The notes under the pieces were generated by a model. It saw nothing but the letters and a program-made list of their open reading frames with translations, was not told where the DNA came from and made no database searches. A stretch of DNA of 64,000 nt, from NCBI GenBank assembly GCA_003427395.1, contig BFEA01000029.1, positions 5,185,085 through 5,249,084 of the forward strand, in the 5' to 3' direction. A program made the position numbers and the translations under genes. The number at the start of each line of letters is the position of its first letter. Positions within the stretch are counted from its first letter, which is position 1. This document shows, one piece after another, positions 11,111 to 36,045 of this stretch. The stretch is from Chara braunii. Taxonomy: Eukaryota; Plantae; Charophyceae.

Positions 11111-13436
11111 ATTTGTAGTAGTAATTTCAGACATAACGTTTTCATGTTGGGATTGTTTAGTAATTTCACCACTAGGTTTTGCCCTGCCTGTTCCCCCTGA
11201 TTGGGGTAAGGTGAATTTTCTTTATCTCGTTTTTTCACGAGTTGTTTTTTCCTAATTGGGGATTTTGAACATTGAATTTTGCAGACGCTTTAGTGGGGAT
11301 AGGACTTCGGAGGTTATGGCTGGAACTTTGGTAGGCTGGGGGGTTTTGAGACTCCAGGGTAAAGACATACGGTAGTTACCTACAGCAGGTCTGAGATCCG
11401 TCTGGCCTAAGTTAGGGGACAAGCCAGGGGAAGGATGGTAGGACTGTGAGCCTGGGCTCCGCCTGGCCTTGGGTAAGCTAGGGGAAGGAGAGATAGGGCT
11501 GGCCAGTTGTGGGTATAGACTACTAGTTAGCTGTCCCCGAACCCAGGGGTCTGTTATAGGGGAAGGTTATTCTACAGGGGTGTTGCATGGTGGGAGGCAG
11601 TAGCCCTATTGGGAGTAGGGCAGATTGGGGATTGTCTGAGTCTGGGGCCGGGGTTGGAGAGTTGGTCGCCTTCAACCCCAGCAGGGGCAGACAGGGACAA
11701 GGGGTGAGCAAAGGCAGCCTCTAGGATGGGATTGGTTGCCTTCGCGGATGAGGTGGAGGGAGGGGAGGGGATCTGTTCTATGTTGGGGCCGAGGGATTTT
11801 CCTCGGTGGAGGCAGCATGAAATATGGTACAGTGGGTATGGATTGGTTTGAGCTATGACCAATGGAAGCGTATCCTTTTCATGATCTAATAAACTCAATG
11901 TGTCAAAAAAGATCTGATAATTTCGATACAGTTCAACACTTCAAAACCAGCCATCCGCTGCTTTACAATCTTGGCAGCACCTGGTCTTCTTCTTTATTTA
12001 GGATATAGGAATTCAGGGATTGTCAAACCTGGACTAATAATTGTTGAAGTTGCTTTGTTATGTACTCCTGGATTGCCAATGCCAGAACAACGCTGGTCGG
12101 AGTTGGGGCATAGCCCTGTAACCTGCAATTGGCAGGGGTGGGAGGCCTTGTAGAGAGATCTGGGGTTTGTTGAGGGAGGAAAGCAAGCCAATGGTGAACC
12201 AGGGGGGGCTACCCTGACAACTTATGGGGTGGGGTTAGTCTGGGTAGTGACAAGAGATCAGCTACGACAGTGGGGGGATAGGTTTGTCTTGTTCGTGAGT
12301 TGCAATATCCTGGTAAGGGAGAGCTTGGAGTTTTTCAGGATTAGGAGTCCAGTGTGGCTGACTCAGCATAAGTAGATATATTCTTTTCTCATCATCACTG
12401 GTATCATTAGTATCATCAGCATTAGAATTTTCGAAGGTTTCTGATTTCGTAAGTGCTTGAAGCACTCTATTCTCAGGTTTTTCTCATCCGAAGCCGGGTA
12501 ATGGCCGCAATGTTGTAAACTGATGTATGTTCATATGGGACGCTCGGCCCGGTGTCGAGCGGCTGCCCAGCAGCCGAGGGTATTTCCTGAAAAAAAAAAA
12601 AAAAAGAACTCGGTCTTTGTTGCCTAATTTTGCATGGTTTGGACGCATGATTGCCTGAGACTGATGGGTTTCAAGGGACTTCGGGGGTCTAGAGGCCTTG
12701 TGCTAACGATTGGGAAAGGGCGAGAGAGGGGGGCAATGTAGGCCGTGAGAGGGAGCGGGCGGACTGCAAGAATCCGAGTGTTTGGGGGTTTGGTCCGAAG
12801 TCCGACAAGAAGGAGACAAATTCTGTGCGGTGGCTTGAAGAACTGAAGGGCTGAGGGATAAAGTGAAGGACTTAAGAAGTGACTAAGGATGGCGATGTGA
12901 ATACCGCACGGTATCTATGTGACCCGGCGCCTACCCAAGGGTGGAACTAGGAGATCCGGGCGGCCTACATTGAAAGGCCAAGAACCCCCAGCAGGAGGAA
13001 TGAAATCAGGTCACCCCGGGGAGATGACGAACTTGACTCTGGGCGCACCCGGCTTGGTACGGACTAAGGGCGATGGAGGCGACCAATTTCAGAAGAGCTC
13101 GGGCCGAAGCGGTGATGGGGACGAGTCACACTTACGTGAGCGGGAGTTTCGAATGGCAGGCTACTTCAACAAAGAAAGGAATGACGGTAGGGGTTTATAA
13201 TTGGAATTTGTTAAAGCTACGGAGGAGGGCAGGTGAAGGAAGCTGGGGGGTTGGACCCCGATAAAGAGGGGGAGATATGTCAAGCAAGTGAGGGTCTGGG
13301 GTATGGCGGAAGAAAAGGGAAATGAGAAAGCGGGGGGGTTCTATTCATAGCCACAACNGATCGGAGGTGCCAAGAGAAAGGGTGTTCATAGATAGGTAAC
13401 CAACTTGGCGGTGGCTGCAACCGATGTCTGCATCAG

Positions 13437-13957
13437 TGGGAATGAACTTGGGCCTGGTATGCAGGCCGATACTTTCACGAATTATTTGGCCTGAGAGGCT
13501 GGCCTGCGCGCACGTTTTTTGATAACTGTCCGGAAGTATGATCTCATGGCACTCTCGACAGTTGGGATGAACCAGGGCCTGGTATGCAGACCGATACTTT
13601 CACGGATTATATGGCCTGAGGAGCAGGCCTGCTCACACGTTTCTTGATAACTGTCTGGAGGTACGATCTGATTCCACTCTCGACAGTTTGGATGAACCTG
13701 GGCCTGGTATGCAGGCCGATACTTTCATGAATCATTTGGCCTGAGAGGCTGGCCTGCACGCACGTTTCTTGATAACTATCCGGAAGTACGATCTGATGGC
13801 ACTCTCGATAGTTGGGATGAACCTGGGCCTGGTATGCGGGCCGAGACTTTCGCAAATTGTTTGACCTGAGAGGCAGGGCTGAGCATACGTTTCTTGATAA
13901 GTGTCTGGAGGTGCTGTCTGATGGCACTCTCGACCGTTAAAATGAACTTAGGCCTGA
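13437..13957. repeat. ~125-bp tandem array (~4 units) in the LTR U3 (copy at ~31912-32432)
   Basis: gatgaacc.gggcctggtatgc recurs at ~13440, 13565, 13690, 13815, and partially at 13940. Confidence 0.9.
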
Positions 13958-14187
13958 CGCTCAAGCAGAGGTCTCCGAGGATTTTTTCGAAATTGTCGAA
14001 GGTTATGTGATGCGGCTCATATCAGTTATCATGTACCTGAGCCTGGTGTACAGGCCGATGCATCCAATAATTTTGTTGTTATTATCTGTCTGAGGTCGCA
14101 CTCACGAAAGCTTGGGTAAGGAGGCTATTGGTTGGTGGAGAAGGAGGAACTGGGGATTGATCACGGGGAAGGATGGGAGGAAAAAGG

Positions 14188-14194
14188 TATAAAA
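14188..14194 (+). promoter_or_regulatory. Putative LTR TATA box (copy at 32666-32672)
   Basis: TATAAAA conserved in both LTRs, followed ~150 bp later by a (GA)n tract. Confidence 0.5.
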
Positions 14195-14337
14195 GAGAGG
14201 AAGTGGGATAGATTTAGAGAGGAGGCGCACAGGAGAAGGGGCAGGCACGAAGCGCACGCACAGACTAGTGTTCCGCGCTCGTAGCGAACTGCGTAGCGCT
14301 GCACCCGATCTCTAGAGGGAGAGAGGGAGAGAGAGCC

Positions 14338-14339
<2 letters not shown>

Positions 14340-14398
<59 letters not shown>

Positions 14399-14505
14399 AG
14401 AAGTACGGCCATAGCCAGAGAGAGGGAGAGAAAGAGAGGGAGAGACAGAGAGATAGGACGTACGGCCATAGCCAGAGAGAGAGCGGAGAGAGAGACAGAG
14501 AGAGT
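14340..14505. repeat. (GA)n microsatellite in the LTR (copy at ~32790-32905)
   Basis: Long AG dinucleotide run. Confidence 0.95.
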
Positions 14506-14524
14506 GAAGTGCTGCCCTCTGTTC

Positions 14525-15380
14525 CCCGTGAGTGCTTCGCGCCCCCTTAACCGAGCACCACAGATATGACCAAGTGATATTGTCGGTTCTCCGTGGAGCG
14601 CTTCACGCTCTCTGTACATGTGCAATACGTGCTACCAAGTGCAGATGTTGATGACCGAGGGATATTGTCTGCTCTCTGTGGAGCGCTTCAAGCTCTCCGT
14701 ACCTGCGCCATCCGCGCGACCAAGAGCTGATGCTGATATCCGCCCGTCGTGAGCGCTTCATGCTCTCCCTACCAAGCTCCATACTTGCGACCAGGTGATA
14801 TTGGTTGTTCTCCGTGGAGCGCTTCACGCTCCCTGTACCTGCGCCATACGCGCGACCAAGAGCTAATGCTGATTTCTGTTCGTTGTGAGCGCTTCACGCT
14901 CTCTGTACCTGTGCCATACGTGCGACCAAGTGTTGATGCTGATTTCCGTTTGTTGGGAGCGCTTTACGCTCTCCTGATCGAGCTCCACACGTGCGACCTG
15001 GTGATATTGTCTGTTCTCCGTGGAGCGCTTCACGCTCTCTGTACCTGCGTCGCACGTGCGACCACGAGCTGATACTGATTTTCGTTCGTGGTGAGCGCTT
15101 CACGCTCTCCTTGTCAAGCATCATACGAGCGACCACGGGATGTTCTCTGTCCTCCGTGAGCGCTTCACGCTCTCGGTACCTGCGTCATATGCACGACCAG
15201 GAGCCGATCGTCATGCGAACGACCGAGTGCTGATTTCGGTTTAGTGTGAGCGCCCTTCGCTCTTTGAACCTGTGCCATACGCACGGTCAAGTATTGTTCA
15301 CTGTCCCTGAGAGCGTTCGCGCTTTCTGCACATGTACGAGCAAGAGTCGTCCGCGCTCCTCACTGAGCTCCCTTCGAGTG
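14525..15380 (+). repeat. Minisatellite of ~12 units (65-90 bp), each with palindromic core GAGCG-CTTCA-CGCTC (copy at 33476-34075)
   Basis: Core seen near 14530, 14596, 14681, 14751, 14817, 14887, 14958, 15023, 15093, 15158, 15248 and 15312. Confidence 0.9.
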
Positions 15381-16049
15381 ACCGAGGGTTGTTCGCCTTT
15401 CAGAAGACGACTTCTCTCTTCCTGTACCATACTCAGGACCAGAAAGGGTCTTCGCAGCTTCGGGAGGTTTTTACCGGCGCTGGACCATTCTATCGTCCTT
15501 TTTTTGTTCTGTTTTAATCAGCTCCCCATTCGAATCTGTTTGGTGGCGTTCGACTGTGACTAGGCTATTCTGCATTTTCTTTCAGCTCACTATCCAAGTC
15601 TTTTTGCCACGGCTCGACCGCGGCTGGTTTATTCGCTTGCTTTTCTCAGAAGTCTGTTCGGTTCGCAGAAAAGACCTCGGGATTCGCTCTGTTGAGACCA
15701 AGCTCTTCAGTTTTTTCTTTCATCCTCAAAGACCGTTGTCTTCTCCTGATCACCAGCGTGAGGCTGTCAGCCATTCCATCGGCGCTCCCTCCTAGGGGGC
15801 GGTAGGTCGACAGGTGGACGGAAGCAAATGCGAACTAGAGAAAGGGATGAGTGAGAGAGAGAGAGAGAGAGTAAAGAAAGGTGAGAGAAGAAGAGAGGGG
15901 GGGAAGAGAGCTGCCGCTTGCGAACGTCTGTGGTTTCTCAGGAGAAGTAGAAAGAGAGAAGCTCTCAGAGGGAGAGGGAACGCAAGTTGAGGAGGCTACT
16001 TCGACGGGACCCCTCCATGAGCGTGCTGGGATGAGCTGGTCGCCATCTA

Positions 16050-16470
16050 TAGCTCGTACTTTGGTAACTTCAGTCCCCTCATTGCTCTTTGGCTTTACAG
16101 CTTGCCGAATATATAGTTGCTCTTTGGTTCCGAACTTGTCAAGGCTCTTTGCTTGTTGATCTTGTTGTCGTCTCCAGCTCGTTGTTATCTGTGTACTTTG
16201 GTAACTTTGTTTCCCCATTGCTCTTTGGCTCTACAGGTTGCTGAACATGTAGTTGCTCTTTGGTTCCGAACTTGTCGAGGCTCTTTGCTTGCTAAGCTTG
16301 TCGCCGTCTCAAGCTCGTTGTTATTTGTGTACTTTGGTGACTTTGTTTCCCCCTTGCTCTTTGGCTCTACAACTTGCTGAACATGTAGTTGCTCTTTGGT
16401 TCCGAACTTGTAGAGGCTCTTGGTCCCACAACTTGCTGAGCTCGTGGTCGCCTCGAGCTCGTCACTGTAC
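16050..16470. repeat. 136-bp tandem array in the LTR U5 (copy at ~34735-35290 has one extra unit)
   Basis: ttgctctttggttccgaacttg recurs every 136 bp (16117, 16253, 16389 in the 5' LTR; 34802, 34938, 35074, 35210 in the 3' LTR). Confidence 0.9.
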
Positions 16471-17199
16471 GTGTCCCCTGATCTCAATTAAGTCAATTCC
16501 TTGATTTCACGTGGCTCTTTGGACTTGCCGCCGTCGCAAGCTCGTTTGTTATCCTTGTTCCCTACCCTCAGTTAAGCAAGTTCTTTGTGTTTACGTTGCT
16601 CTTTGAGCACAGATCACATACCGCGAGCTCAACAAGCTCAGCAAGTCCTTCGACTTTGCGATTGCTGGCTGGCCGTCCTTTCTAACACGTTGACTCCACT
16701 AACACTGTTGACAACTCTCGAGCTTGTCGACCAAGCTCGTTGATTTTACCAGCAATATTCACAGCTCGCCGAGGTTGTCATTACTCCTTAGGTGTTACGG
16801 GCGAGGGTTACAGCTCGCTGAGCCGGGCGGTCGGTAAAAGGGCGATTTCCCAGCTCGTCGCATCTTGAGTTAGCTGGTTCTCAGTTGATATTCCCGGGGC
16901 GAGGAACGGTTCGGTGCCTGTGACCCGGTACCCCCCCCCCCGTTCTCGGGGGCGGAACGAACTCGACACCGGTAAGCCGCGGAAAGGAAAGCTTAGCCGT
17001 CGGACAAAAGCTAATGGGAAATACGTAAGACGCCGGGTCATTCAAAAGCTCTTATCTGCGCCCCCGGTAGAGGCCACAAAGCCACTAACTTGCTCCCTCG
17101 CCTGGGATAGAGCGTGGCCATCGAGTAGAAGGAGAAAGGGGGGGTCCTGAGAAGGCGAGACGGGAAGGCTGACTGGTCAGAGGGACAACCCTGACAAAG

Positions 17200-17216
17200 T
17201 GGCGCCGTTGCCGGGG
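17200..17216 (+). promoter_or_regulatory. Primer-binding site complementary to the tRNA-Asp 3' end
   Basis: tggcgccgttgccgggg 3 nt after the LTR end; this PBS type is also used by plant Athila elements. Confidence 0.92.
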
Positions 17217-17717
17217 TTGAGCATTTCTCCCGCGGCCTCGGCCGGCTCAGCAGCTACGGGGTAAGGGAGGACCAGCGTGACAGGCAGCGGTAGGGTGAGT
17301 TTGAAGTGTTCTGCAAATTTTCGGCATCAAGTCCTTCGGCACGAGTCTTCAAGGTAGTCCCCAACGGATTCTCCACGGTGATCACGGTTCTTCTCGAGCG
17401 GCATCGCCGAGGGGTTTATTGGGGAGGGTTTGTTTGTCGGGTGCGAGGAGTTTTGGGTGTTGGGTTCGTCTCCTTGGCTTTTGTAGGTCTGCTCCGGCCC
17501 GCTTGCCATCTCGGCTCCCACTTCTGTCCTTCGAGGAGTAAAGCAGGTCATTTCCGTTTTTTGTGTGCTTGGTTTTTTGCGCATGTTTATTTCTGAAAAT
17601 TTAAAAATTAAGGGGGAGCACAGTTTGCTTGAGGGGTCTGAATTAGGGTGAAGAACAACGCAAGGGTGGGAAGAAGAACAGTCCGAGAAAACAGTGTAAG
17701 GGGGTCTGCTCGAGGGG

Positions 17718-17771
<54 letters not shown>

Positions 17772-18808
17772 GGGTCCGAGGGGGTCCGGTAGCGCTGTCT
17801 ATTTGGGACCCAAGGGGGTCGCCGAGTATTCTTGACCCGCACGGGTTGTGGAGGGCACCTACCCGGGGGCAAAGTCCCGCACGAGAGAGTGTGTCTAGAG
17901 AGGGGTTAGGGGCTTCGGTTCTCGACCCGCAAGGGCTGACGATGGTTCCAACTACCGCAAGGGAGCGGGACTCTCAAACGGGACCGGTTCGGGACTTGGG
18001 GGAGAGGAGAGTGGTGTTACGGGTACCGGGGCGAGGGGGAGAGAGAGACACACCTACCCGTCTTAGCAAGGGCATTAGAGAGGAAGGGGGTACTTGGGGG
18101 ACCTTGGACGAGGGATCGGAGGCCGAATCCTGGGTGGACCGGTGACTAGCCGATTTCTCGGACTCGGACCTGGGGGACTATTGGGATTATGATAATGAGT
18201 ATTGAAGACACGAGGTACGTATGCTTGTCAACCCAACCTGAGAGCCTCTTCCTAAAACTCCGCTTTACCCACCCCATTTTTTTCTGATTTCCCGATATTC
18301 CCGTGATTCCAAGAGAGAAAAGAGGCAGCGGGAGGCGGAAAAGGACGAAGGGAACAAAGTGCGAAGAGTTCACGATGAGGAGAATGGGGGGGGAGTAGAT
18401 AGACTAGTGATTTCTGATAAATAGGTGGATCTTGTCCTGGGACCCGGGTAATTCCACGCTTGAGGTGGGCCGAGTAGAGGCGTGGTACCGGATAGGCTAA
18501 CTTAGGATTAGAGGTCGGTTCAGTGGGGGACATAGGAGCCGGGTGTGTGACTTCGGTCCGACTCCGGGGAGGGGGTTGTCACCCTTCCTTGGGGATAACC
18601 TGTGTCCGCGGCTAGTCTCTAGGCTGGGAGTGGGGGGAAGTCTCTCAGCGGGGGAGGACAAGAAGGTAGCCGAGTGAGACGGCGTTCCTTCTCTGGTCCA
18701 TTTGCTCCTTCTGAGCTCACAGGCTTCTTCTCCTTGCGGGATAGAGGTGGTCTCTCGAGTAGCTAAAAAAAAATAGGGACTTAGGGAATCTTCCTTTTAT
18801 TATATTGC

Positions 18809-19169
18809 ATGAGTTTGGAAGCCGTTCCGGAGTGGATTAACGTGTGTACGTACGGAAGTGTTGACGTGTGGTGTTTACTTCTTCCGGCTATGGATGGGTG
18901 ACTTTGATGTGGGTGACTATGTAGAGGAGGAACAAGATCAAGGAGAGGACTTCCTTCGTGGGTGGGAAGAGGCGATAGGCCACTCTCGTGGTTCGCGGGA
19001 GGAATTGAGGGGTTATGGATGCAAGTATTTTTACTCCCTTGGATACCGAACCTACCCCAGAGGTGGTCGCCCGGCGCTGGTAATTCCGGACGCTTATCTC
19101 GATGGATCAGATGAATGGAAAGTGTTAGTGGGGATTGTGGAGAGAGTGGTGAAGGCGATGAATCCATGA
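18809..19169 (+). pseudogene. Accessory ORF A (~119 aa, family I), one 1-nt frameshift
   Basis: ATG 18809 MSLEAVPEWINV…VDVWC; an extra T near 18875 shifts into YFFRLWMGDFDV…AMNP*. Aligns end-to-end with ORF B. Confidence 0.75.
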
Positions 19170-19531
19170 GCTTGAGGCCTTTGGAGTTTCAACCTGCAGG
19201 AATTAGTGTAGGAGATCGAGGCGGAGTAGAGGTGTGGTGCTATACCTTGTACTGGTGGACCGGCCACTTCGACATAGCCTTGTACGTAGAAGAGGGTGTT
19301 GATAGAGAGGCATGATACTTGGATAGCTGGGAGGAAGCGGTCGGTCATGCACAACTCGAGAGACAACTGCTGGGGGCTTACGAGATTAACTACTTCTACT
19401 CGTTGGGGTGTAGGACGTATTCACGAGGGGGCAGGCCTGTTCCTACTATATCGGAAACCTTCTTAGACGGATCGGACGGGTGGAGAGCACTAGTTCAAAT
19501 CATAGAGGAGATAATCCAAGGGGATGGTTAG
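19166..19531 (+). pseudogene. Accessory ORF B (~121 aa, family I), one internal stop
   Basis: ATG overlaps the ORF A stop (ATGA). The frame continues through TGA 19313-19315 to …EIIQGDG*. Confidence 0.8.
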
Positions 19532-20258
19532 GATTATCGAGGGTACTGAAGAAGAAGGGGCTCTAATAGAGAAAGCAGATTTAAGCAAAGTCAGGGAGTG
19601 CTTTAGCGTCCCTTTAGATCACCGCACCGAGAGGTATTTAGCCGGCCGGGAGAGGGGATTGGAGCTAGAACGAGGGGTTTTCCTTTGGGCTCGTTTCGCA
19701 GTAGGGACTTGGGAAGGGGACAGGTGGTCCCGGAACAGGCCCCATAACGGGAAGAGACCCAGGCGAACGGTGATCCGTGCGGAAGGAACTGTCTACTTAA
19801 GTAAGGAGGTCTGGGTCGATTACGTCACTCACTTGGTCCTGGGTTGATACCGTGCGGATCATTGGGAGGCACGAGCGGGTCCGATTTTGAGGCAGATCTT
19901 TGAGGCGGAGCCCCTTAGACACTGCCCACCAGTTGAGGTAAGGGTGACCTGCGCGCAAGACGAAGAGTACCCCCGCGCCGCAGGGTGCATCAGAGTCATA
20001 TTCCTGTCATTCGTTTTTCAAAGAGTGAGCGGAAAGGAGGAGCGATACGAGAGGGTTGTGCGGTCCATAGTGCGAGAAAGGGGGTGGCAGCTCTCTGTTA
20101 GGTCGCTCCATTGGTACTACACCTATTGTGTGGATAACCCGGTACCATACGGGATCAAGGCATGTAGGATTCATGCGGGGATCTTCAGGGAGTCTACCCG
20201 GGACCGCGAGGGAGGAAGGGACTACGGATACCAAAGAGTCTTCGGGGTACCACAGTGA
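19524..20258 (+). pseudogene. Accessory ORF C (~244 aa, family II), one internal stop
   Basis: Track ORFs 19524-19847 and 19887-20258 are in the same frame across TGA 19845-19847; colinear with ORF F. Confidence 0.78.
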
Positions 20259-20271
20259 ATGTTCTAAATGA

Positions 20272-20924
20272 ATGGTGTTCCATGATAGAGAGCAGGGATG
20301 CTTCTTAGAGTCCTCTTTAGAGGACCGTGAGGCCCTTAGGCTGGTCCCTAGCAACGGGGAAGTCCCTGATTGGGAAAGGATAGAAGGGGGGAGGTCCACG
20401 GTTGGTGGGGGATTCGTGTGGGTAGAATCCAAAGAAATAGAAGGCCAAGGTCTTGGGCGAAGTCTTGAAGTAACCGCGGTTATTTTCATAGCACCGGAGG
20501 CTTGGACAAAGCTTGTAGTACCCCTAATTCTGGGACAAGGGGGTGGGCTGGAAAAATTGTTGCGAGAGGCGAGAGAGGTAGAGGGGAATGGATGAGTAGG
20601 GTTAGAGAGCGATTTGCATTCGTGTCCGTGGAAAGGGAGAGGTTCACGAGGGAAAGAGAGCTTTCGAGGTCAAGTTACCCATTAACTGTGAGGGTGCCGT
20701 CTTACGTATTCCCTAGAGCAAACGAGGGAAAGATAGTGTGTCCTTCAGGGACCTGTGGATACTGTATACGCACTGCATCGATCAGGGTATTCCGCCGCAA
20801 AAAACTCTGGGGTGTTTTCAGGAGATTAGGATCTCTTGAAAAACCCTTCACTCTCTCTCCTGAAAAATATCGCAGGTGGGTCTTTAGAACGACGATAGCA
20901 GATGGTGAAGTTTATGCTCAGTGA
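20272..20924 (+). CDS. Accessory ORF D/E (family II): two ATGA-coupled ORFs (20272-20595, 20592-20924) or one frameshifted ORF
   Basis: The D part has GFVWV…EVTAVIFIAPEAWTKLVVPLILGQ; the E part has VPSYVFPR resembling the C-terminal half of ORF C. Confidence 0.65.
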
Positions 20925-21630
20925 AAACGGGGTGGTGGAATCGATAGAGGCCAGTGACACCGAGAAGGTTTTAGTCCCGGGGGACCCTCAAGTGATTCCT
21001 TATTGGATGAGCGTTGAGAAAGGGGGATTGCTCAGAGAAGGGGCCTACGTGTGGGTTCGAGCTCGAAGGCTCACTTGGAAGGAAGGTGTGGAAAGAGGAG
21101 GTCCCCCCGACCTCGGTCGCTTCCTGGAGATTCGGGCTACCATTTTTTTCAACGAAGAGGTGTGGACCGAAGTCTGGAGAGGATTGGTGACCGGGCAACT
21201 TACGCATTTTGAATACCGAGAATCCGCGAGGCTGTTGGCAAACAATCTAGTGTTAGCTGACTACGAGGAAGGAACTTTCGAGTCGTGGTCACTAGTGTCC
21301 TTCGCCGAGCCAGGAGAGGTCCCTCGCGCGTCCGGGGTCCTCCACCCTAACCTACCCCAGTTCGTGGTCAGTTCGTTCCTAAGAGATTCAGAGGAGAAAG
21401 TAGTAGCAGTGCTTAGAGCGGCTTAAGAATCCGGGGTGCGGGCTAGGGGTTTGTTCTGGCTTTATACTCGGTGCGTGGACGCGGGAGTTCCCCCAAGAAG
21501 TGAGTTGTCCGCCATATTCGGGAGGTTGAGAGAGTTTGAGGGGCTCCGATCCCTCGTCGCGGACGTTCCGTACGCCCGCCTCTTCGGAGAAGAGCAGGTG
21601 TCTAACCGACGGGGTTTCGAGGGTCGATGA
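20902..21630 (+). pseudogene. Accessory ORF F (~242 aa, family II), one internal stop
   Basis: 20902-21426 and 21436-21630 are in frame across TAA 21424-21426; motifs GAYVWV, ATIFFNEEVW, LFWLYTRCVD, YARLFG. Confidence 0.78.
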
Positions 21631-22385
21631 TAAGGGGGATACCGAGAACTCTCTAGGCATCCATAAAACCCGTGGAGGATACCGGGGAGGTTGTCAGTGT
21701 CACTCTGCCTAGTGTCAGATTGACTGAGCCGACTAGGACTCTCTTGCGAGAAGAAGGGGAGATCCGGCGCGGTAAGGCTTTCATACGATTTGCAGTGAGT
21801 CGCGAAGGGAAGGTAGTAGTTGGAGAAGCCCGAATCTTCCTTTCGAAGAAGGGCCTTGTTGAGATAGCGCATAGCTTACGGATTGGGCAGGACCCTCTCT
21901 GGGACGCTCGAGCCGTGAGAGGCCGGCTAGGAGAGTTAGTAGAGGAATTGAGGCCTCACGAAGGGTGCGACGAGGAATGTCTAGTGACCTACGAGGGTTG
22001 GGAAGAAATACCGCGGTTCCTTTCCAGTGAGCCGGTAGAGGTCCCCCGTTTCATTTTTGAACGGGTTTACCCCTCCGAGGCTGTTAAGAGGGCGGTAGAA
22101 AGAACGGTTTCCATCCTAAGTCAGTTCAGGTTCACGGGATCGGATCTCCACATCTTGTTAACTTGGTGTTTTCGAGATCCTTATAAAGACGATTGATAGA
22201 CTCTAGAGGACCTGGGTTACGCCTTCGAAGGTTAGGGTCGATATGCGAGGGAGTCTAAGATATCGTGGAGATACTTAGGTAAGATCTGCGAGGGAGAGCT
22301 AGCGAGGTTGGACCCCTCAGACTTGATTCGGATAGCAATTGCGTGTCGTCGACGGAAGTTAGGGGATGATCGAGCCGGACCTTGA
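21627..22385 (+). pseudogene. Accessory ORF G (family II), several internal stops
   Basis: ATG 21627 overlaps the F stop (ATGA) and is in frame with track ORF 21672-22196. The read-through tail LGKICEGELARLDPSDLIRIAIA resembles the ORF I tail. Confidence 0.7.
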
Positions 22386-22554
22386 GGAGCTTGTGGGGCT
22401 GGATAGAGTAAGGGAAGAAGTTCACCGGATCCTTGCTCTGTGCTGGGAGGAAGAAAGGAGGGCTAGGCCGGGGTCCTTAGCCAGGATCAAGCTACTTGAG
22501 ACAACTGCAATCGATATCCTAGACGAGGTAACGATAGATCTTCTCACGCAGTGA
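22366..22554 (+). CDS. Small accessory ORF (62 aa), or frameshifted tail of ORF G
   Basis: ATG start, same composition as neighbours, and fills the gap between G and H exactly. Confidence 0.45.
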   Translation: MIEPDLEELVGLDRVREEVHRILALCWEEERRARPGSLARIKLLETTAIDILDEVTIDLLTQ

Positions 22555-22558
22555 GGGG

Positions 22559-23035
22559 ATGAGAGCTTCGTTTGTGTCCAATAGGATCCGTTGGGGATTA
22601 GAGACCTACGAGGACGGTAGCGAAGTTAGGGTTGAAGGGAGTGCAGAGCTTAACCCGGAATTGGGAGAGGACCGGGTAGTCCGCGCCGAGACAAAATTTC
22701 TAGTGGAGGTCCGACGACTGGCCTTATGGAAAAAAAGAAGCTGGACCACGCTAGCTACCTTTTCAGTCCACATTAGAGACGCGAGTGGCGTGAGGTTCTC
22801 GAGGACTTGGAGGGAGCCTTTGTTGGAAGTAGAAAGAAAATTCGAGGAGGACTCTAGGTATCTAGGAACGCCACTGACATCTAGGGCACACCTTGTGGAG
22901 ACCCGATTTTGGTATAGGTCGGGAGATTACGAAGAGGCTTTGCGCCGAACACTGGAAGAGGACGAAGAGACTGGACACGCCAGGTGCGAGGACTCGCTGG
23001 CAGCGGCCGCCGCAAGGTTGACCGACGTAAGGTGA
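22559..23035 (+). CDS. Accessory ORF H (158 aa, intact, unknown function)
   Basis: ATG 4 nt after the previous stop; uninterrupted; no visible similarity to families I or II. Confidence 0.65.
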   Translation: MRASFVSNRIRWGLETYEDGSEVRVEGSAELNPELGEDRVVRAETKFLVEVRRLALWKKRSWTTLATFSVHIRDASGVRFSRTWREPLLEVERKFEEDSRYLGTPLTSRAHLVETRFWYRSGDYEEALRRTLEEDEETGHARCEDSLAAAAARLTDVR

Positions 23036-23043
23036 AGACCCGG

Positions 23044-23939
23044 ATGATTCGATACGAGAAGGGGGCCCCGTTGGTACCATAGAGAGGGCTTGGACGTGGG
23101 GAGGAAGATATGGAGTAAATCTCCCGAGAGTTAGAGGGGATTGATGTGACTACCGAGTTCTTCGAAATTTACGAGCAGGAGACAGTGGTCAGGTTTTCAG
23201 TGGCGTCCGAGGGGAACAGTTGCACGAGAAAGGCGGAAATTTTTTTGTCCCCTGACGCCCGGCTAATCTTCGCAACTGAATTGGCGGAAGGGAAAGATCC
23301 TCTAGGCATCGCCAATAGGGCCCTAGAACGAGTAAGGAGATTGAGAGGGGGTGGCACGGAGAGCCCCGTGATTGACAAGGTAGAGTACCGAGGGAGGACA
23401 GAAGTTCCAAGGGCAGCCCATGGGAGAACTTGGGATATCCCTACCTGGGCCTATCGACTGCTCTATGCTGACAACGAGACCGTGAGGAGAGTTTTGTTGA
23501 GGGGTCAGGTGATAGAAAAATTCCCGTTGGGTGAAGAAGGGGGACACGAGTTATTCACCTAGTGTTGGGAGTCGAGAGAAGACACCGACTTCGAGTGGTG
23601 GGCGCGCGTTGGGGAGTTCATCAAGCCCCTGTTCTCCGGACAAGCTGGTGATGTGGAGTCGTGGACAGGGATTTGATTAGGAGGTGTGCGCAAGAAGGGA
23701 TTAGGGGCATCTCGAACCTGGAGATCGCGAATCTTGCATTGGCTGCTAGCGAGGAGAAGAAACTGAGGGATTCTTGGTGGACGGTGACCAGCGAGGAGTC
23801 GGAGGGAGAGGGTGCTGACGAGGATTCTAGTGAGGAGAAGGGGGGATTGGAGGAAGAAGAGAATTCAGAAGATACCGCAGACAGTAGTGAGAGGGACGAG
23901 CCGGAAGGTAACGCGGACGATAGTGAGGGAGGCGACTAG
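23044..23939 (+). pseudogene. Accessory ORF I (family II) with acidic C-terminal tail; stops and frameshifts
   Basis: Starts MIR like ORF G. VRFSVASEG…KAEIFLSPDARLIFATELAEGKDPL aligns to G IRFAVSREG…EARIFLSKKGLVEIAHSLRIGQDPL, and ELFT*CW to LLTWCF. Ends in a D/E/S-rich tail. Confidence 0.72.
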
Positions 23940-23958
23940 AAATTGCCAATAAGGGTGC

Positions 23959-26388
23959 ATGGAGAGTGAAGTAGAAGCTGGTCTCTCTAGTCCGCCGGAA
24001 ACCACTGAAAGAAGGGGGATAGTGAAGAGTCCCGAGTTGGGGGCCAGTCTAAGTAGGGTAGTGGAAGAAATGACAGAGGGAGCAGAGACGCTAGATAGGG
24101 CCGAGGGGGGTCCGGAAATGGCTTCGGGAGAGAGAGAGGCCTCGGAGCGGCAAAGAGCTGGCACGGAAGTGCGAGTGCACAGGGATGTGGGGCCGCAGGT
24201 GCCGGTAAACGAAGGGGTCACTGAAGCTGCAAGAGGCATTCCGGTGGAATCCCGGTGGGCGGACCTAATGGATGCGGAAGCAAGGTTAGAGGAAGCATGG
24301 GAATTTCCTAGAGATAGACAGGGGTATCGACCACTTAGGAGGGAGGAAGAGGAGTGTCAGGACAGGAGAGACTTAAGAGAAGGGAGGTCAACAGAAGCCG
24401 GCGGTAGGCCGCGGAGATGGGTCGAAAGGGTCCCGGAGGCCGTCACCGGTGAGAGGCAGGCTTTGGTGGGGCCAAGAACTGGCGCGGAAATGCGAATGTC
24501 TGTGCGAGAAGGGGGGATCGAGAGCTCGAGGGGCCTTCCTATAGAGTCTCGGTAGGCGGATTTACCGGACGCAAGAATGGGAGAAACTCTAGAATTTCCA
24601 AGAGATAGAGTAGGGTACCGGCCACCCAGGAGAGAAGAGGAAGGGGGACCGAGTAGAAGGGACCTTAGAGACGAGGGGCCGACGGAGGCAGGTAGTAGGC
24701 CACGAAGATGGGCCGTAAGAGAAACGGATGCTCCCTGGGTTCCCGGCGAGATAACATGCGTAAATCACGGGGTGGAGGCTTGGAGGAGCTTTAGGGGGCA
24801 GGGCCACGCTCGGTGGGAGACGGATTGGCCGGATGAGCGGGGCCGCTACGGGGAAGACCCCTGGGAACCGCCTAGACCCCGGGGCCGGGTGGAGGAGACG
24901 GATCCCTCGTGGTACAAGCCGTACGATCCGGCAATCGATGGGCCAATGGAAGGTCCCTATTTTCGCCGATACGACGACCGACGAGTCCCCTATTACGACG
25001 TCAACCCATTTTTCTTCGACGGACGGGATGTGACTGGGTTCGTGGAGAAATGGGAGAGTTATGCTTACCGTAAAAAATTCTTCGAAAGAGAGTGGATAAA
25101 CTATTTTATCCAGCACTCGGACCCCGAGTTAGACCCCGCGATTCGGGCTATCTACCCCTCAGACGGACGATGGAGGACCTTCAGGGTGACCCTATTGCAG
25201 ATTTTCGCCTGTGATGACCTGATCCCGACCGTGGAGGGCTTGCGACGAATTACAAAAGGGGAACGAGAGAGCTTGGTAGCCTTCACCCGTAGGTTCAAGC
25301 GCCTGTCCCAAGCCCTAGTGGATAGGGGTATGCTGTCTGAAGTAGATAGGTGCGTGATGTTCATGCTGCACCTACCCGAGGAAAAGAGGAAAGAGGTTCT
25401 TGAGACGGCCTCGAGGGATTCTGCCAATTTCGAGAAAGTCGCGGAGGTGGTTTTCACGGGGGGAGGAGTAGATGTGAGGGAACACATGAAAGAGACCTTG
25501 GACATGGCACTCTGCAACATGCGAGGCACGCGGAACGATGGTCCCAGGGGAAACGATAGACTGCCCCCGGGTCCACCTGGTCCCCGGTGGGGAGAACGGC
25601 CAACCGGATGGAGGAACGAATCGAGTGGCCAAGGAAGTTGGAGGAACGACAGGGAGATGAGGGGGAATCGTGGTTCTGATTGGGGGGGTTCCCATTGGAA
25701 GGATGCTAGGGATGGAAGGTGGGGAGACGCCCCTCAAGCAAGGGCTTCTGGGCCGCGATCGGAGGTTAGGGCGCCACCACCGCCAGCACCTCCACCACCG
25801 GCTCCGCCGGCGCCTATAGCGGCAGCCACGCAAGGGGGTCCACGTCCCAACAACCCACAAGCCCGAAGCGGGTGTGTCTACTGCAATGAAGAAAATCACA
25901 TTAAAAGGGACTGCCCTTATCTCACGGAGGCCTTAAGGTTGGGAGTGGTCAAGCTGAATAAGAACAAGTGGGTTGTGTGGGGGGACAACGGAGAGGCGGT
26001 CTCCTTTTACCCATCAATGAAGGTGAACGTGGACAAGAGGGTGGCCCTCCAGGAGGCTAGGCTGGGGAAGAAACCGAAAATCGGGAGCTCCTCCAACATA
26101 GCTCATATCCAAATGACGGAGTCACCAGGGGGGGTGTCCATTAGGGAACCCTAGGTGTCAAGCATTAAGTTCATATAAACCCAGCCCGAGGAAGAGAGGT
26201 CTTGCCTAAGGGTGAGAACGCACGTTGGGACTGAGACGTCCGAGAGCCAAGCGAGCGTGACGGAAGGCACGGAAGTAAGGAGCGGCGACAATGACCAACC
26301 GATGACCGATGCAAAAGCGGTGGAGGAAAAGAAGGAAAAACCCACCTCACCCAAATCGCCTAAAAAGAGGGGATAAAAAAAAATTGAA
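23959..26388 (+). pseudogene. gag: gag (with long N-terminal extension and CCHC zinc knuckle), internal stops
   Basis: 23959, 24577 and 26389 share one frame. Capsid-like FDGRDVTGFVEKWE…KGERESLVAFTRRF; knuckle CVYCNEENHIKRDC. Confidence 0.9.
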
Positions 26389-29300
26389 ATGAAGTGCACT
26401 CTGGATGAGATAGACACGGTAGCACCTCTTAGGAGGACCCTGATGCAGCCTATGCAGTGCACACTTTTGGAATATCTAGCCGCCAGCAAAAGCGTCAGGG
26501 AAGAACTCCTAAGCATCACGAGGAAGGTAAGAGTCCCGCTCGCAGGGGGGCCCAAGGTGCCGGTGGAAGGTCCCGCCAAGGAAGAAGTACAGGCCTCCCG
26601 CATTACCATGAAGGAGCTACCTGCCAACTTCTTCTCGGGAGAAGAGGCCGAGAAATTCTATGTGTTAGGTAGTGGCCAGCTCCAGGCAGTGGTAAGTGGG
26701 AAGAAAATGAGGGCTCTAGTGGACAATGGGTCCGAGTCTACGGTGTGTAGGGAATAGATCGAGGGGTATCGATGTCGATGGTAGTGGCGGATAACAAGCT
26801 GCAACCGGCAGAAGGGGTGTGTCATAACCCCGTGATTGAGGTCGCTGGTATAGAGGCCATGGTCCCGATCTTTTCGGTAAAAGAGTGCTCCTCCGAATTG
26901 ATCCTCGGAAGGACCTGGCTGAGCGCAGTACACACGACCACGGTTGATTTGTCGGATGGAAGTCAGACCCCCTCGATCCAAAGTCCTGATGGAATCCGAG
27001 TGGTCCTAAAGACCGTAGACGCGCAAGATGAACGTAACCGGACCAGCATCGCTAGATGCAAGGGGAGTCCGTCGAGGGTGTGCCGAGTCTGTCTGAAGGA
27101 GGTGCCCTTGACGGATATGGGACCCAAGGGAGACCAATTGGAGGTCGAGGACGTGGGGGATAGGATTGTAATTAACGGTATGGGTTACGAGAAGGAGGAT
27201 GAGGAGGAGGAGTTCGGTGGATGCGTGAGTATGTCTTTTTTGGAGGTATCCCCCTAGCCGGCGGAATAAAGAAGCACAAAATCGTGGCGGAGAAAGTAAA
27301 ACCCGCCGAGGTCAGCCGAGATAGAACGGGGTTAGCTACAATATCGGAGGAGGAGATAGTTGATATCATCCGGAAAAGGAAAGAGACAGAAGGGCAAAGG
27401 ATAACGGCCGATAGATTGGCCAAAATGGATATAGGAGATGGGAACCTCACGGAGGAAGAGAAGGGATTCATAGCAATGACCCTCAGGGGGTGCGATAAGG
27501 CCATCGCCCTTAATGACTCCGAGAGGGGGAGGATCGACCCAAGGTACGCTAAGCCGGCCCGGATCCACACGGTCCCGCACGTGCCTTGGAAGGATAGGCC
27601 CCAATGGAAGTACGCTCAAAAGGAGAAGGAGGAGATAGTGACTTTTATCAAGGAAAAAATTAGAACGTTCGTTGCGGAACCTTGCGAGAGTGCCTACTCC
27701 AATAAGTGGTTCTTTCTAAGAAAGGGGGGTAGCAACAAACTGTGATGGATTCAAAACCTCCAGAGGACCAATGCGGTCACCATAAGGGACGTGGGATCTA
27801 TACCCGAGGCCGACTTGCTAGCGGAAGGGTCGGAAGGTCGCTCGATATACTCGATCTGCGATCTCTTCTCTGGGTATGACGAAATCCCCCTAGACTATCG
27901 TGATAGGCATATGACCGCCATGCACACGCCGCTAGGGTTGGTCCAAATGATGGTGGTACCAATGGGCTGGACGAATGGGGTAGCGGTGTTCCAACGGGCC
28001 ATGATTGCAGTCCTCAAGGAATTCATACCGGATAAGGTAGAGGTCTTCCTAGATGACCTCCCGATAAAAGGACCGGTCGAGCGAGACGAGACGGAAGTTT
28101 TTCCCGGAGTGAGGAAGTTCGTGGTGGACCACATGAGCGACGTCAGGGACGTCCTTGTGAAACTGGACGATGCAAATCTCACGGTAAGCGGGACTAAGAG
28201 TCGCTGGGGCATGTCCTCCATCAAGATATTAGGGTTCATTTATTGTAAGGATGGGCGGAGGTCCGACCCCGAGAAATTGTTAAAATTAATGACCTGGCCG
28301 TCACCACTCAAATCCATAACAGAGGTCCGACAATTTCTAGGGGTTGTGGGCTACTGGAGAATCTTCATAAAGGCCTATGATGAGAAGGTGGAGCCCCTTA
28401 GAAGACTCCTTCGGAAATTGGAAGGATGGGTTTGGGGGGAAGCACAGGAAGCGGCCATGGAAGCTTTGAAGGTGGAGTTCCGCAAAGGTGGAGAGGTCCT
28501 AGGAGTTTCGTTCTTCGAAGACGAGGAGAGTCGCCCTTTCATAGTGTCCACGGACGCTGGACCTCATTCGGTGAGAGTCCTCCTGTCACAAAAGGACGGA
28601 GAGGGGAAAGAGAGACCGTTGCGATTTGAAAGCCGGACCTTGAACCACGCCGCTTGAACCACGCCGAGAGAAATTATAGCCAATTCAAAAAGGAGGTGTT
28701 AGGGGTATTGCATTGCCTAAAGGCCTTCCGTCATTATCTATACTGACGACGATTTCTCCTAAGGGTGGACCCGACGGCAGTGGCCGCGGTCCTCCAAAAA
28801 GATTTCTCGCTGACCGATCCTACCATCGCACGCTGGATGATTCATATTAGGCTTTACGACTATAGGGTCGAGAGGATATCAGGGACCAAGAGCCAGGTCG
28901 TGGACGGATTGTCCCGGCTTCCTATTCGTGAGGAGGACCTACCTAGGCTTAAGGAGGAAGAAGTGACAATGGCCAAGGAGGAGATAATGAAAGTCGCCGC
29001 TAATAGGGCACGAATAGCGGGGAGCAGCCGAGGGGAAGAAGGGGGCCCAATGACTTTTCTCACAAATCTCTAGGACGGGAAGTACCGGGACATAGGACCG
29101 TACCTGGCCGGTAGGGAAACATGGACTGAAAGAATCCAGCGAGAGGCGCTGGGGTATTGCTTGCGGGAAGGCCATCTCTTCAAAAGGCCCACCAAGTTTG
29201 CGATACCCATGAGGGTACTGTGCGATCCAGAGGAGAGAAGGGCGGTCATAGAGGAGTTACACGATGGGGTCGTTGGAGGTCATAGGGGGGTGAAGGGTAC

Positions 29301-30647
29301 TTTCGATAAAGTCCGTAGGCTTTATTGGTGGGACGGGCGATACACGAAAGTGGAAAAGTACTGTTCAACATGTGAGGCTTGCCAGAAGAGGGCTACGGTT
29401 CGATACAAGGAACCCTTGGTTCCGTCGCTTCCCACGGTTCCGGGAGAGAAGGTCCATGTTGACTTAGTAACCATGCCAAAGGGGATCGGCGGACTTCGGT
29501 ATATAATTAACACGCGGGATGACCTCACGGGATTCGTAGAGCCAAAGGCCGTTAAGAAGAAGACGGCAGAGGAGGTAAGTGAATTTCTCCTTGAATATAT
29601 CGCGCGGTACGGATGTGTTGGGAGAATAGTCATGGATAGGGGCGCAGAGTTCTTGAGCCAAAAGATCAAGGCATTATTGGAAAAGGCAGGGATCGGGGTG
29701 ACCTATACGATCGCTTATCACCCCCAGAGCAATGCACCGATAGAAATGGGTCACCAGACGCGCTTGTGGACGCTCTGGCGAAATGGTGCAAAGGTCGCGC
29801 GGAACAGTGGCTGAGATATTTGCGGTACGCGGTTTGGGCCGATAATATCACAGTCAAGTCCAGTACGGGATACCCTCCTTACACCCTTTGGTTCGGTAGG
29901 CATTGTCCCCTTCCCATCGAATTCCACATCGACACTCGGACGAGTGTCTCATGGAAAATCAACATGACCCGGAATGAACTGTTGGAGGCACGGATCCAAC
30001 AAATAGCTGAGAATTTGGATACCGGTGTAACCAAAGCGGGAGAGAACATCGAGAGAGAGAAGGTGAAAGGAAAAGATAGGTGGGACAAAAATCTGCGGGT
30101 CTGAAAGGCGCCGATAGGGGTTGACGACCTAGTGCTGATGCATGATTCGTCACTAGAAAATACCTGGAGCAGGAAATTGGCAAACCGATGGATGGGGCCG
30201 TATAAGGTCCTAAAGAGATTGGATGGGGGGGCTTACATGCTCGCGGAATTAGATGGGAGTAGGCTACGGGATCCTGTCGCAGGCGCTCGTCTCAAAATCT
30301 TTCGATCACGAGAGACCCTTGAGGAAGAGTCGAGACAGAAAGGAAAAGAAGCTATTGACACACAGGTGAGCATAACCGACGAAAAAGGGGAGACCTCCAA
30401 ACAAGAAGACTCTTCTCGACCCCCAAGGAAAGTGTATAAGGTTCGGAAAACTGCCCTACCAAAGACCCCTAGGAAGAACAAACGACTGAGGGAGGATGAC
30501 GGAGATACTGACCGATTAAGGAAACGCAGGTTGAACGAAATGAGGAATGCGTCAAGAAAGGCCCTGAGACTCAAACGTGAGAGAGAGGAGAGAAAACGGA
30601 AGAGAGAGAGGCGCGAGAAGAGGATGAGGAGACGGAGACGGGCGTAA
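26389..30647 (+). pseudogene. pol: pol: protease, RT, RNase H, integrase (stops and frameshifts)
   Basis: PR ALVDNGSE…LILGRTWL; RT DLFSGYD…PMGWTN…VFLDDLPIKG; RH FIVSTDAG…ERNYSQFKKE; INT H-x6-H…CSTC, VHVDLV, MDRGAEF, YHPQSNAPIE, GPY motif. A 14-bp duplication at 28639-28666 frameshifts RH. Confidence 0.96.
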
Positions 30648-31006: not shown

Positions 31007-31028
31007 GAGAATTGGGGTGTGGGCTGGC
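31007..31028 (+). promoter_or_regulatory. PPT-like G-rich tract before the 3' LTR
   Basis: gagaattggggtgtgggctggc abuts the LTR start; it is not purely purine. Confidence 0.5.
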
Positions 31029-32814: not shown

Positions 32815-32905
<91 letters not shown>

Positions 32906-35900: not shown

Positions 35901-36006
35901 TGCTCCCTCGCCTGGGATAGAGTGTGGCCATCGAGTAGAAGGAGAAGGGGGGGGGGCTGAGAAGGCGAGACAGGAAGGCTGACTGGTCAGAGGGACAACC
36001 CCGACA
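31029..36006 (+). repeat. 3' LTR (includes an N gap)
   Basis: Begins tgtcgggcagctgcctagcagccgaggg, ends gggacaaccccgaca, followed by the CCGG TSD. Confidence 0.96.
32906..33475. other. Assembly gap (N run)
   Basis: Ns following the (GA)n tract. Confidence 0.99.
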
Positions 36007-36045
36007 CCGGTCTCCAGCACGTGCTGCTCCCCACGAAGACTGGAG

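What the first reader, a model, noticed from the sequence alone, without database searches (positions are those of the whole stretch)
18809..23939. Virus-like polycistronic cassette of ~8-9 unknown ORFs between PBS and gag
Seen: 5.1 kb almost entirely tiled by same-strand ORFs (A, B, C, D/E, F, G, 62-aa, H, I), ending 19 nt before the gag ATG. They are broken by the same kinds of lesion as gag-pol. Where a paralogue shows the ancestral codon it is TGG>TAG (23560; likewise 24553 in gag), so the ORFs were probably intact in the active parent. Established: Ogre/Tat and some other plant elements carry one or two extra ORFs; I know of no LTR retrotransposon with an operon-like array this large. Inference: an accessory module, for example for anti-silencing, movement or host manipulation. 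This is the best candidate for an undescribed system in the window.
Basis: partly seen in the sequence, partly recalled or inferred. Interest (0 to 1): 0.92.

Follow-up and report, generated by a model that had tools for sequence, protein, structure and literature searches.

The report
Algal retrotransposon with nine-gene accessory operon
A jumping gene of a stonewort alga carries, ahead of its normal capsid gene, nine tightly packed extra genes, seven of them copies of two unknown proteins, in a stretch stripped of stray start codons, so that one RNA likely makes ten proteins in a row the way some plant viruses do.

Summary
The cassette is real, but it is not nine unrelated genes. It lies in a 23.5-kb Ty3/gypsy element; every named relative is from Chara braunii. 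A and B are paralogues; C, D, E, F and I+J are five paralogues of one ~200-250 aa domain; a 62-aa ORF and G are singletons. The ORFs evolved under purifying selection (dN/dS 0.17 for E and 0.14 for the first part of D against one sister locus; A/B third positions saturated). Stops checked against sisters are private decay. A second gypsy family (RT 47% identical) carries at least four paralogues of the same domain. New here: from B to gag (4.8 kb), ATG is the most depleted trinucleotide, on the sense strand only, in and out of frame; all nine junctions lie within -23 to +19 nt. That fits scanning/reinitiation translation of one RNA, as in caulimovirids (inferred; no ribosome data). The domain folds with fair confidence (pLDDT 75) but matches no known family or fold; anti-silencing is a guess. 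The scan earlier noted ATG-poor pre-gag cassettes of three membrane ORFs in animal gypsies; I found no paper describing this one.

The parts
12549..12552 (.). Left copy of the 4-bp target-site duplication (CCGG); right copy at 36007-36010
12553..17196 (+). 5' LTR (4.6 kb), TATA-like box at 14188, tandem-repeat arrays of 125, 70/136 and 136 nt
   Evidence: 92.9-95.5% identical to the 3' LTR in three blocks
17200..17216 (+). Primer-binding site, 3 nt after the LTR; tRNA-Asp type (tRNA identity recalled, not from a call)
17217..18808 (+). Leader: 7 ATGs, none between 18385 and 18808; donor-like sites near 17259 and 17293 and an acceptor-like site at 17486 (splicing not shown)
18809..19169 (+). 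ORF A, paralogue of B; frameshift near 18900 in this copy; not ATG-depleted (12 seen, 9 expected)
19166..19531 (+). ORF B, 121 codons, start overlaps the A stop (ATGA); one in-frame stop at 19313
19524..20258 (+). ORF C, paralogue 1 of the repeated domain, 244 codons; stop at 19845; the only start in strong context
20272..20924 (+). ORF D, paralogue 2; frameshifts near 20579, 20741 and 20795 in this copy; one open frame in L001
20902..21630 (+). ORF E, paralogue 3, 242 codons; stop at 21424; dN/dS 0.17 against L001
21627..22385 (+). ORF F, paralogue 4, 252 codons; start overlaps the E stop (ATGA); stops at 21654, 22194, 22197, 22233
   Evidence: extent beyond 22196 rests on one sister model, P0013
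22366..22554 (+). 62-aa acidic ORF, open, singleton; weakest-supported member (no sister protein found)
22559..23035 (+). ORF G, 158 aa, open; 76% identical to part of sister model P0005; not a significant member of the C family
23044..23939 (+). ORF I+J, paralogue 5 with a long acidic tail; frameshifts near 23060, 23140 and 23653 and a stop at 23560 in this copy
23959..30647 (+). gag (CCHC knuckle), protease, RT, RNase H, integrase; broken by 8 stops and several frameshifts; normal ATG density
31029..36006 (+). 3' LTR (contains an assembly gap)

Best explanation
This is a nine-gene accessory array inside a multi-copy Ty3/gypsy retrotransposon of a stonewort alga, built mostly by tandem duplication of two element-borne genes, and it is likely translated together with gag from one long RNA by ribosomes that reinitiate and keep scanning. 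Shown: the paralogy, purifying selection on D, E and A/B, presence in sister copies, junctions within -23 to +19 nt, and sense-strand ATG depletion from B to gag. Inferred mechanism: ribosomes start at A (first ATG after an ATG-free 424 nt), translate it, reinitiate at the overlapping B start or resume scanning, and are shared out among the later starts, nine of ten of which are in weak or moderate context; clearing stray ATGs lets some reach gag. Because A is full of ATGs and C has a strong start, leaky scanning alone cannot do it; reinitiation after long ORFs is required, possibly helped by a cassette product (untested). Function of the proteins, guessed at about 30%: soluble, non-enzymatic nucleic-acid- or host-protein-binding factors that blunt host silencing and diversify by duplication in an arms race.
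For: Paralogy: A-B E 1e-23; C-E, D-E, C-F and F-I each 0 of 300 shuffles. Selection; 8 of 11 listed cassette differences in RNA reads are synonymous against 31% expected (only 40 of 731 rows were shown). Family feature: 11,780-14,219 contigs per run, mostly 80-95% alike, cover 30 of 30 bins (one sample); model P0005 strings D, G, J, gag and protease in cassette order. ATG: 27 seen against 54 expected in 19170-23939, rank 1 of 64 trinucleotides; minus strand 37 against 30; gag-pol 115 against 105; in-frame Met 4 of 1491 against 53 of 2123 codons (p 1e-8); out-of-frame 13 against 29.8+-4.5 (0 of 1000 synonymous resamplings; gag-pol 57 against 59.7); sister proteins 6 Met in 2758 aa; L001 6 ATG in 1261 nt. 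Starts of D, E, F and I+J are matched by sister models. The same two features mark polycistronic translation in caulimovirids (PMC5902531, PMC3542737, passages). Repeated expansion: the two families' paralogues fall on opposite sides of one branch (99/97). No membrane segment; the best-conserved columns inspected are L, G, V, P, F, S, not catalytic types.
Against: No ribosome or protein data. ORF A is not ATG-depleted, C has a strong start, and 20 non-start ATGs remain in B to I+J, 2 in strong context; some may be decay, not checked one by one. The second family's paralogues have 2-5% Met, so the depletion is not universal for the domain. No UGGGA within 100 nt before any of 8 stops. 4.8 kb is five times the ~900 nt shown for rice tungro bacilliform virus. 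L001 has no ATG at the E start. RNA: 603 reads of 16.7 million in X6, 6 in X5, 0 in X7; the flat depth (~4) fits a full-length RNA but also DNA carry-over, and library strandedness is unknown. dN/dS rests on one 1.26-kb sister locus; C, F, G, the 62-aa ORF and I+J have no dN/dS. The tree has long branches and could be biased by composition. The function has no direct evidence.
Confidence: 0.55

Rival explanations
1. The nine genes are real, but each is expressed from its own spliced or internally started message, as retroviral accessory genes are; low ATG content only keeps each message's leader clear.
For: Donor- and acceptor-like sites exist in the LTR and leader; gene model P0003 joins a leader exon to I+J (a prediction only); ORF A's 12 ATGs and C's strong start hinder plain scanning; family 2 is not Met-poor.
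Against: Only one acceptor-like site in the cassette (21360), none near an ORF start; no joints in 603 RNA reads, at low depth and with the lay starting at 17800; depletion runs through ORF interiors and includes in-frame Met; stop/start overlaps are not needed under this model.
Confidence: 0.2
2. The repeated domain is structural: paralogues build a shell, ring or tubule that moves the element through plasmodesmata between the alga's giant cells or coats its particle.
For: Five diverged copies made from one RNA would suit a heteromeric assembly (inference). Weak fold rows include three chimallin entries (Z 5.2, rmsd 4.4, 113 aligned; Z 4.6; Z 4.4) and ring-building FliF and needle-complex chains (Z 4.5, 4.3).
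Against: All these Z values are below the tool's stated background of 7-8; Foldseek against viral models gave nothing at E<=0.001; no Pfam movement or capsid family in 31 members; no membrane segment.
Confidence: 0.15
3. The block is a cassette captured whole from a virus or another mobile element, or a nested insertion in this copy.
For: Its ATG usage differs sharply from gag-pol; its layout is virus-like.
Against: It is present across sister copies; a distant gypsy family has the same domain before gag; 10 of 12 profile hits in 1.84 billion proteins are element relatives and 2 are unrelated repeat proteins; no relative of F or G in viral contigs; no convincing PHROG match. A, B and the 62-aa ORF were not searched in the large collections.
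Confidence: 0.05
4. The ORFs are pieces of one decayed polyprotein, or chance open frames in purine-rich DNA.
For: The minus strand is also largely open; database gene models fuse pieces to each other and to gag or pol.
Against: ORFs change frame at junctions; D's stop is shared with L001; sister models begin at the D, E and I+J starts; dN/dS is low only in the proposed frame (0.17 against 2.23 and 1.16 in the other two); several family-2 models are stand-alone 226-317 aa proteins.
Confidence: 0.03

Closest known systems
Caulimoviridae pregenomic RNA: rice tungro bacilliform virus and badnaviruses (leaky scanning); cauliflower mosaic virus (TAV-driven reinitiation)
   Same: Consecutive ORFs joined by short overlaps or gaps; accessory ORFs upstream of the capsid/RT ORF cleared of internal AUGs (PMC5902531, PMC3542737, passages).
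   Different: This is an LTR retrotransposon with integrase; nine upstream ORFs and 4.8 kb against two ORFs and ~900 nt; the first ORF is not cleared; no TAV or movement-protein match.
Drosophila MDG1 group (412, mdg1) with sORF1 and sORF2 upstream of gag
   Same: Sense ORFs between 5' LTR and gag on an unspliced full-length RNA, under purifying selection (10.1101/2025.03.14.642691, passages).
   Different: Two ORFs of ~110 and ~70 aa, one a membrane fusogen; here nine ORFs of 62 to ~290 aa, no membrane segment, and paralogue arrays.
Ogre, TatII and Tekay plant gypsies with a 5' extra ORF
   Same: Large element, ~5-kb LTRs with tandem repeats, extra sense ORF before gag (PMC6317226 passages and Additional file 5; PMC6431247 passages).
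   Different: One or two extra ORFs in Ogre; Tat elements carry a second RNase H, not found here; no Pfam domain of those ORFs is matched.
Phygy clade (Physcomitrella non-chromovirus gypsies)
   Same: 4-bp NCGN target-site duplication (here CCGG; PMC6317226 Additional file 5).
   Different: Phygy are 7.7-10 kb, mostly tRNA-Trp-primed and have no extra ORFs; RT phylogeny not tested.
VANC anti-silencing proteins of Arabidopsis VANDAL DNA transposons
   Same: Analogy only: element-borne accessory proteins in an arms race with host silencing (PMC5735166, PMC10398659; listing and start of abstract only).
   Different: DNA transposons; no sequence or fold link was found or directly tested.
Burro giant gypsies of planarians; KnitGypsy-Dnmt3 of Klebsormidium
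   Same: Gypsy elements with large extra coding capacity; the second is also in a charophyte (PMC6431247, PMC5890265, passages).
   Different: Their extras are recognisable host-like domains, mostly fused in a polyprotein; here they are separate unknown ORFs.

Membership tests
Ty3/gypsy (Metaviridae) | Paired LTRs, TSD, PBS | tested here: met
Ty3/gypsy (Metaviridae) | Order gag, protease, RT, RNase H, integrase | tested here: met
Phygy | 4-bp NCGN TSD | tested here: met
   CCGG; definition
Phygy | Length 7.7-10 kb, no extra ORFs | tested here: not met
   23.5 kb, nine extra ORFs
Phygy / Athila / Tat (REXdb lineages) | Placement in the RT-RH-INT tree | not tested
   No reference sequences on hand in the script machine
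Athila | tRNA-Asp PBS | tested here: inconclusive
   PBS read; its tRNA identity is recalled
Athila | 5-bp TSD | tested here: not met
   4 bp
Tat / Ogre | Additional archaeal-type RNase H | tested here: not met
   No second RNase H family in the 10 gag-pol stretches scanned; short gaps between stretches were not scanned
MDG1 sORF2 / FAST-like fusogens | Small protein with a transmembrane helix | tested here: not met
   Highest 19-residue hydropathy 1.76 (D), others <=1.32, in 10 cassette pieces
Caulimovirid-type polycistronic translation | Consecutive ORFs with short overlaps or gaps | tested here: met
   -4, -8, +13, -23, -4, -20, +4, +8, +19 nt
Caulimovirid-type polycistronic translation | Upstream ORFs cleared of internal AUG | tested here: inconclusive
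   Strongly depleted in B to I+J, but 20 non-start ATGs remain and A is not depleted
Caulimovirid-type polycistronic translation | Upstream starts in suboptimal context | tested here: inconclusive
   9 of 10 starts weak or moderate by the general Kozak rule; C strong; host-specific context not measured
Caulimovirid-type polycistronic translation | Downstream ORFs translated from one RNA | not testable with these tools
   Needs Ribo-seq or reporters
Calicivirus TURBS reinitiation | UGGGA motif 40-90 nt before the stop | tested here: not met
   0 of 8 stops
KH type II / OsmC-like alpha-beta fold | Structural match of the core | tested here: inconclusive
   3gku Z 3.9, rmsd 3.2, 73 aligned; OsmC, Era and uS3 rows at E 0.03-0.9; all within background
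KH domains | GxxG loop between two helices | tested here: not met
   First Gly in 27 of 31 rows; the fourth position is mostly Pro (23 of 31)
PC4 / Whirly / Pur-alpha fold (recalled lead) | Structural match | tested here: inconclusive
   Not among the listed rows
VANC-like anti-silencing proteins | Sequence-specific binding to the element and loss of methylation | not testable with these tools
   Bench test needed

The most novel reading that the evidence does not exclude
An LTR retrotransposon has independently evolved a ten-cistron, caulimovirus-style messenger: ribosomes are passed along nearly 5 kb through nine accessory genes to gag, with a cassette product acting as the reinitiation helper, and the repeated protein is a new fold that two element families have each expanded into an array of counter-silencing factors.
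Probability: 0.25. Interest if true: 0.9.

Novelty: new variant of a known kind. Interest (0 to 1): 0.74.

Why it matters
Eukaryotic messages with many long cistrons are rare, and plant LTR elements are described with one or two extra ORFs. A selected nine-gene array with a clear sequence signature of scanning would be a natural test case for how far ribosomes can be handed along one RNA, and for whether reinitiation after long ORFs exists outside Caulimoviridae (PMC5902531 says no TAV-like activator is known elsewhere). It also defines a new, foldable protein family that two gypsy families of one alga each amplified, which points to an unknown host-element conflict in a close relative of land plants. 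Practically, about 45 'hypothetical proteins' of the Chara braunii annotation found here are pieces of these elements.

Tried and rejected
Word-index search with E at near length: 0 of 874 candidates. Pfam (15 cassette pieces), PHROGs (15 pieces; three rows at E 0.016-0.045 treated as noise) and NCBIfam (9 proteins): no credible family; Pfam on 31 aligned members hit only gag-pol domains of chimeric models plus one row at E 0.03. PDB sequence searches with A2, A3, B and G: nothing better than E 0.87. ESM Atlas: no usable hit for F; seven other tries were unanswered, so P0024 and G were not searched. First fold (E, 5 rows) pLDDT 47, best Z 4.4: uninformative. Second fold (P0024, 31 rows) pLDDT 75: no Foldseek match at E<=0.001 in PDB or viral models, best Z 5.3; this does not show the fold is new. 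Recalled PC4/Whirly and KH leads were not supported. G, B and the 62-aa ORF as distant members of the C family: G 32 of 484 shuffles as high, B not scored, 62-aa ORF 1 of 441 but only 2.7 bits; rejected. P0010 and P0011 dropped as repeat artefacts. L002 and L003 rejected: L002's match centres on the 8-residue search word in an unrelated ORF; L003 matches the same stretch and was not inspected further. Viral contigs: no relative of F or G. No RNA holder was listed by the run index. Oligomer prediction gave no result. Literature: nine searches listed no paper on this element or domain; the Chara braunii genome paper did not appear in the listings and was not read, so a mention there or in its supplements is not excluded.
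Full report
Setting. The finding lies in one complete LTR element: LTRs at 12553-17196 and 31029-36006, 92.9-95.5% identical, a 4-bp target-site duplication CCGG, and a primer-binding site at 17200. Pfam finds a zinc knuckle, protease, RT, RNase H and integrase in gypsy order downstream of 23959. All named database relatives are Chara braunii gene models, so the host is that alga or a close relative (inference).

Observation. The ORFs exist at the stated place and end 19 nt before gag. Open stretches cover 93% of the + strand against 45% in simulations (0 of 300), but the - strand is also 89% open, so tiling is not enough. Selection is the real evidence. A and B align without gaps over 84 codons, 50% identical in protein, with 60/68/24% identity at codon positions 1/2/3. 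Against sister locus L001 (1261 nt, 83.5% identical), E gives dN/dS 0.17 (0.11-0.29) in its own frame and 2.23 and 1.16 in the other two; the first part of D gives 0.14 (0.05-0.32); two short later pieces of D give 0.43 and 0.49 with wide intervals. Of 11 listed cassette differences in RNA reads 8 are synonymous, against 31% expected and 7 of 14 in gag-pol; of 13 listed in DNA contigs 7 are (each table showed only its 40 best-supported rows). This copy's stop at 21424 is open in L001, and L001 has its own stop in E, so these lesions are private. The cassette has 8 in-frame stops, gag-pol 8.

Anatomy. All-against-all comparison shows two families: A with B (E 1e-23), and C, D, E, F, I (C-E, D-E, C-F, F-I each 0 of 300 shuffles). 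Sister gene models correct the map: I and J are one ORF in 7 models; F extends to 22385 in P0013; D is one frame in L001 ending at the stop that matches 20922. The result is nine ORFs: A, B, C, D, E, F, a 62-aa ORF, G, I+J. G and the 62-aa ORF are not significant members of either family.

A family trait. DNA contigs of one sample (11,780-14,219 laid per run, mostly 80-95% alike) cover 30 of 30 bins of 17800-31000 (depth is not a copy number). Model P0005 strings D, G, J, gag and protease in cassette order; P0013 runs E, F, gag. A profile of the five paralogues found 12 proteins in 1.84 billion: 8 Chara braunii models, 2 unnamed close relatives, 2 repeat artefacts. One hit, P0012, has three copies of the domain ahead of a gag-pol whose RT is 47% identical to this one. 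Searching with it gave 33 proteins, 32 labelled Chara braunii; 26 of 33 match an HMM built only from this element's family (domain E <= 0.05 for 100 targets), and they define at least four paralogues, one ending in an acidic tail like I+J. Their position before gag is read from gene models; I saw no DNA of that family. In a 22-row tree the two families' paralogues separate (99/97), which suggests separate expansions; branches are long.

Translation signature. Junctions measure -4, -8, +13, -23, -4, -20, +4, +8 and +19 nt; A/B and E/F overlap as ATGA. From 19170 to 23939 ATG is the most depleted of 64 trinucleotides (27 against 54), not on the minus strand (37 against 30) and not in gag-pol (115 against 105). 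In-frame Met is 4 of 1491 codons against 53 of 2123; out-of-frame ATG is 13 against 29.8+-4.5 (0 of 1000 resamplings), which protein composition cannot explain; 13 sister protein stretches hold 6 Met in 2758 residues. Nine of ten starts are in weak or moderate context. Short junctions and AUG-cleared upstream ORFs are the marks of polycistronic translation in Caulimoviridae, shown over ~900 nt in rice tungro bacilliform virus (PMC5902531, PMC3542737; passages). Against a simple version: A has 12 ATGs (9 expected), C's start is strong, 20 non-start ATGs remain, no TURBS motif precedes any of 8 stops, and family 2 has 2-5% Met. I therefore favour initiation at A followed by reinitiation and renewed scanning. 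This is inference. Separate spliced messages are the main rival: no acceptor-like site lies near an ORF start and 603 RNA reads showed no joint, at depth about 4.

Expression. Run X6 gave 603 reads of 16.7 million over 30 of 30 bins, mostly from diverged copies, about 72% with the first mate on the minus strand in the 12 cassette bins (my sum of the table); X5 gave 6, X7 none, X9 17 contigs. This fits low, sample-specific full-length transcription, but DNA carry-over is not excluded.

The protein. A family-2 member folded on 31 rows gives pLDDT 75, pTM 0.67: an N-terminal sheet with two helices, a further strand pair and a helical C-terminal part. Foldseek finds nothing at E<=0.001 in PDB or viral models; the wide search peaks at Z 5.3, under its background. 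Weak rows recur among KH-II/OsmC-like, chimallin and ring-building folds; none is accepted. There is no membrane segment, and the conserved columns inspected are structural residues. A, B, G and the 62-aa ORF were not folded, and A, B and the 62-aa ORF were not searched in the large collections. The function is therefore a guess: repeated duplication and deep divergence under constraint resemble arms-race factors such as VANC (PMC5735166, PMC10398659; listing and abstract start only), and the LTRs carry tandem-repeat arrays, but nothing ties the two together.

Comparison. Extra ORFs before gag are known: Ogre has 1-2 (PMC6431247, passages); 21-33% of Ogre, TatII and Tekay elements have a 5' sense ORF (PMC6317226 Additional file 5); MDG1 elements have two, one a fusogen (10.1101/2025.03.14.642691, passages); a review notes most plant extra ORFs lie after pol (PMC7264820, part 1 of 3; PMC12786077, passages). 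A charophyte gypsy with a captured methyltransferase is described (PMC5890265, passages). The TSD fits Phygy; size and extra ORFs do not; lineage was not placed. Nine searches listed no description of this array; the host genome paper was not read. Two earlier scan notes report ATG-poor pre-gag cassettes of three membrane ORFs in animal gypsies (seen after my, unchecked).

Verdict. A real, selected nine-ORF accessory array (about 95%), likely read from one RNA by reinitiation and scanning (about 55-60%), with a new protein family of unknown function. New variant of a known kind; interest 0.74.

Noticed in passing
window 24112-24720: The gag N-terminus contains a tandem duplication of about 100 codons (gag piece 1-55 matches 24259-24429 at 65%).
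   Followed up: no
window 13434-13956, 14681-15208, 16056-16421 and the 3' LTR: Each LTR holds three tandem-repeat arrays (125 nt x4.2; 70/136 nt; 136 nt x2.7), with differing copy number between the LTRs.
   Followed up: no
window 17259-17546: Donor-like sites near 17259 and 17293 and an acceptor-like site at 17486 suggest a leader intron; gene model P0003 uses an exon starting there. The RNA lay began at 17800 and could not test it.
   Followed up: partly
window 30105-30647: Integrase ends in an SH3-like stretch and a very basic tail (56 K+R in 180 aa), a possible nuclear-localisation or chromatin-binding region.
   Followed up: no
window 31005-31028: The sequence before the 3' LTR is G/T-rich and not a clean polypurine tract.
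   Followed up: no
window 4325-5179: A second, distant reverse-transcriptase stretch (25% identical to this RT) from another element.
   Followed up: no
window 62442-63130: Array of 53-nt tandem repeats next to a GA microsatellite.
   Followed up: no
database proteins P0001-P0050: Many Chara braunii 'hypothetical proteins' are chimeric gene models stitched from pieces of these elements and unrelated exons.
   Followed up: partly
L001:575-577: The sister locus has no ATG at the position of the E start and has its own stop inside E: decay, or a non-AUG start.
   Followed up: no
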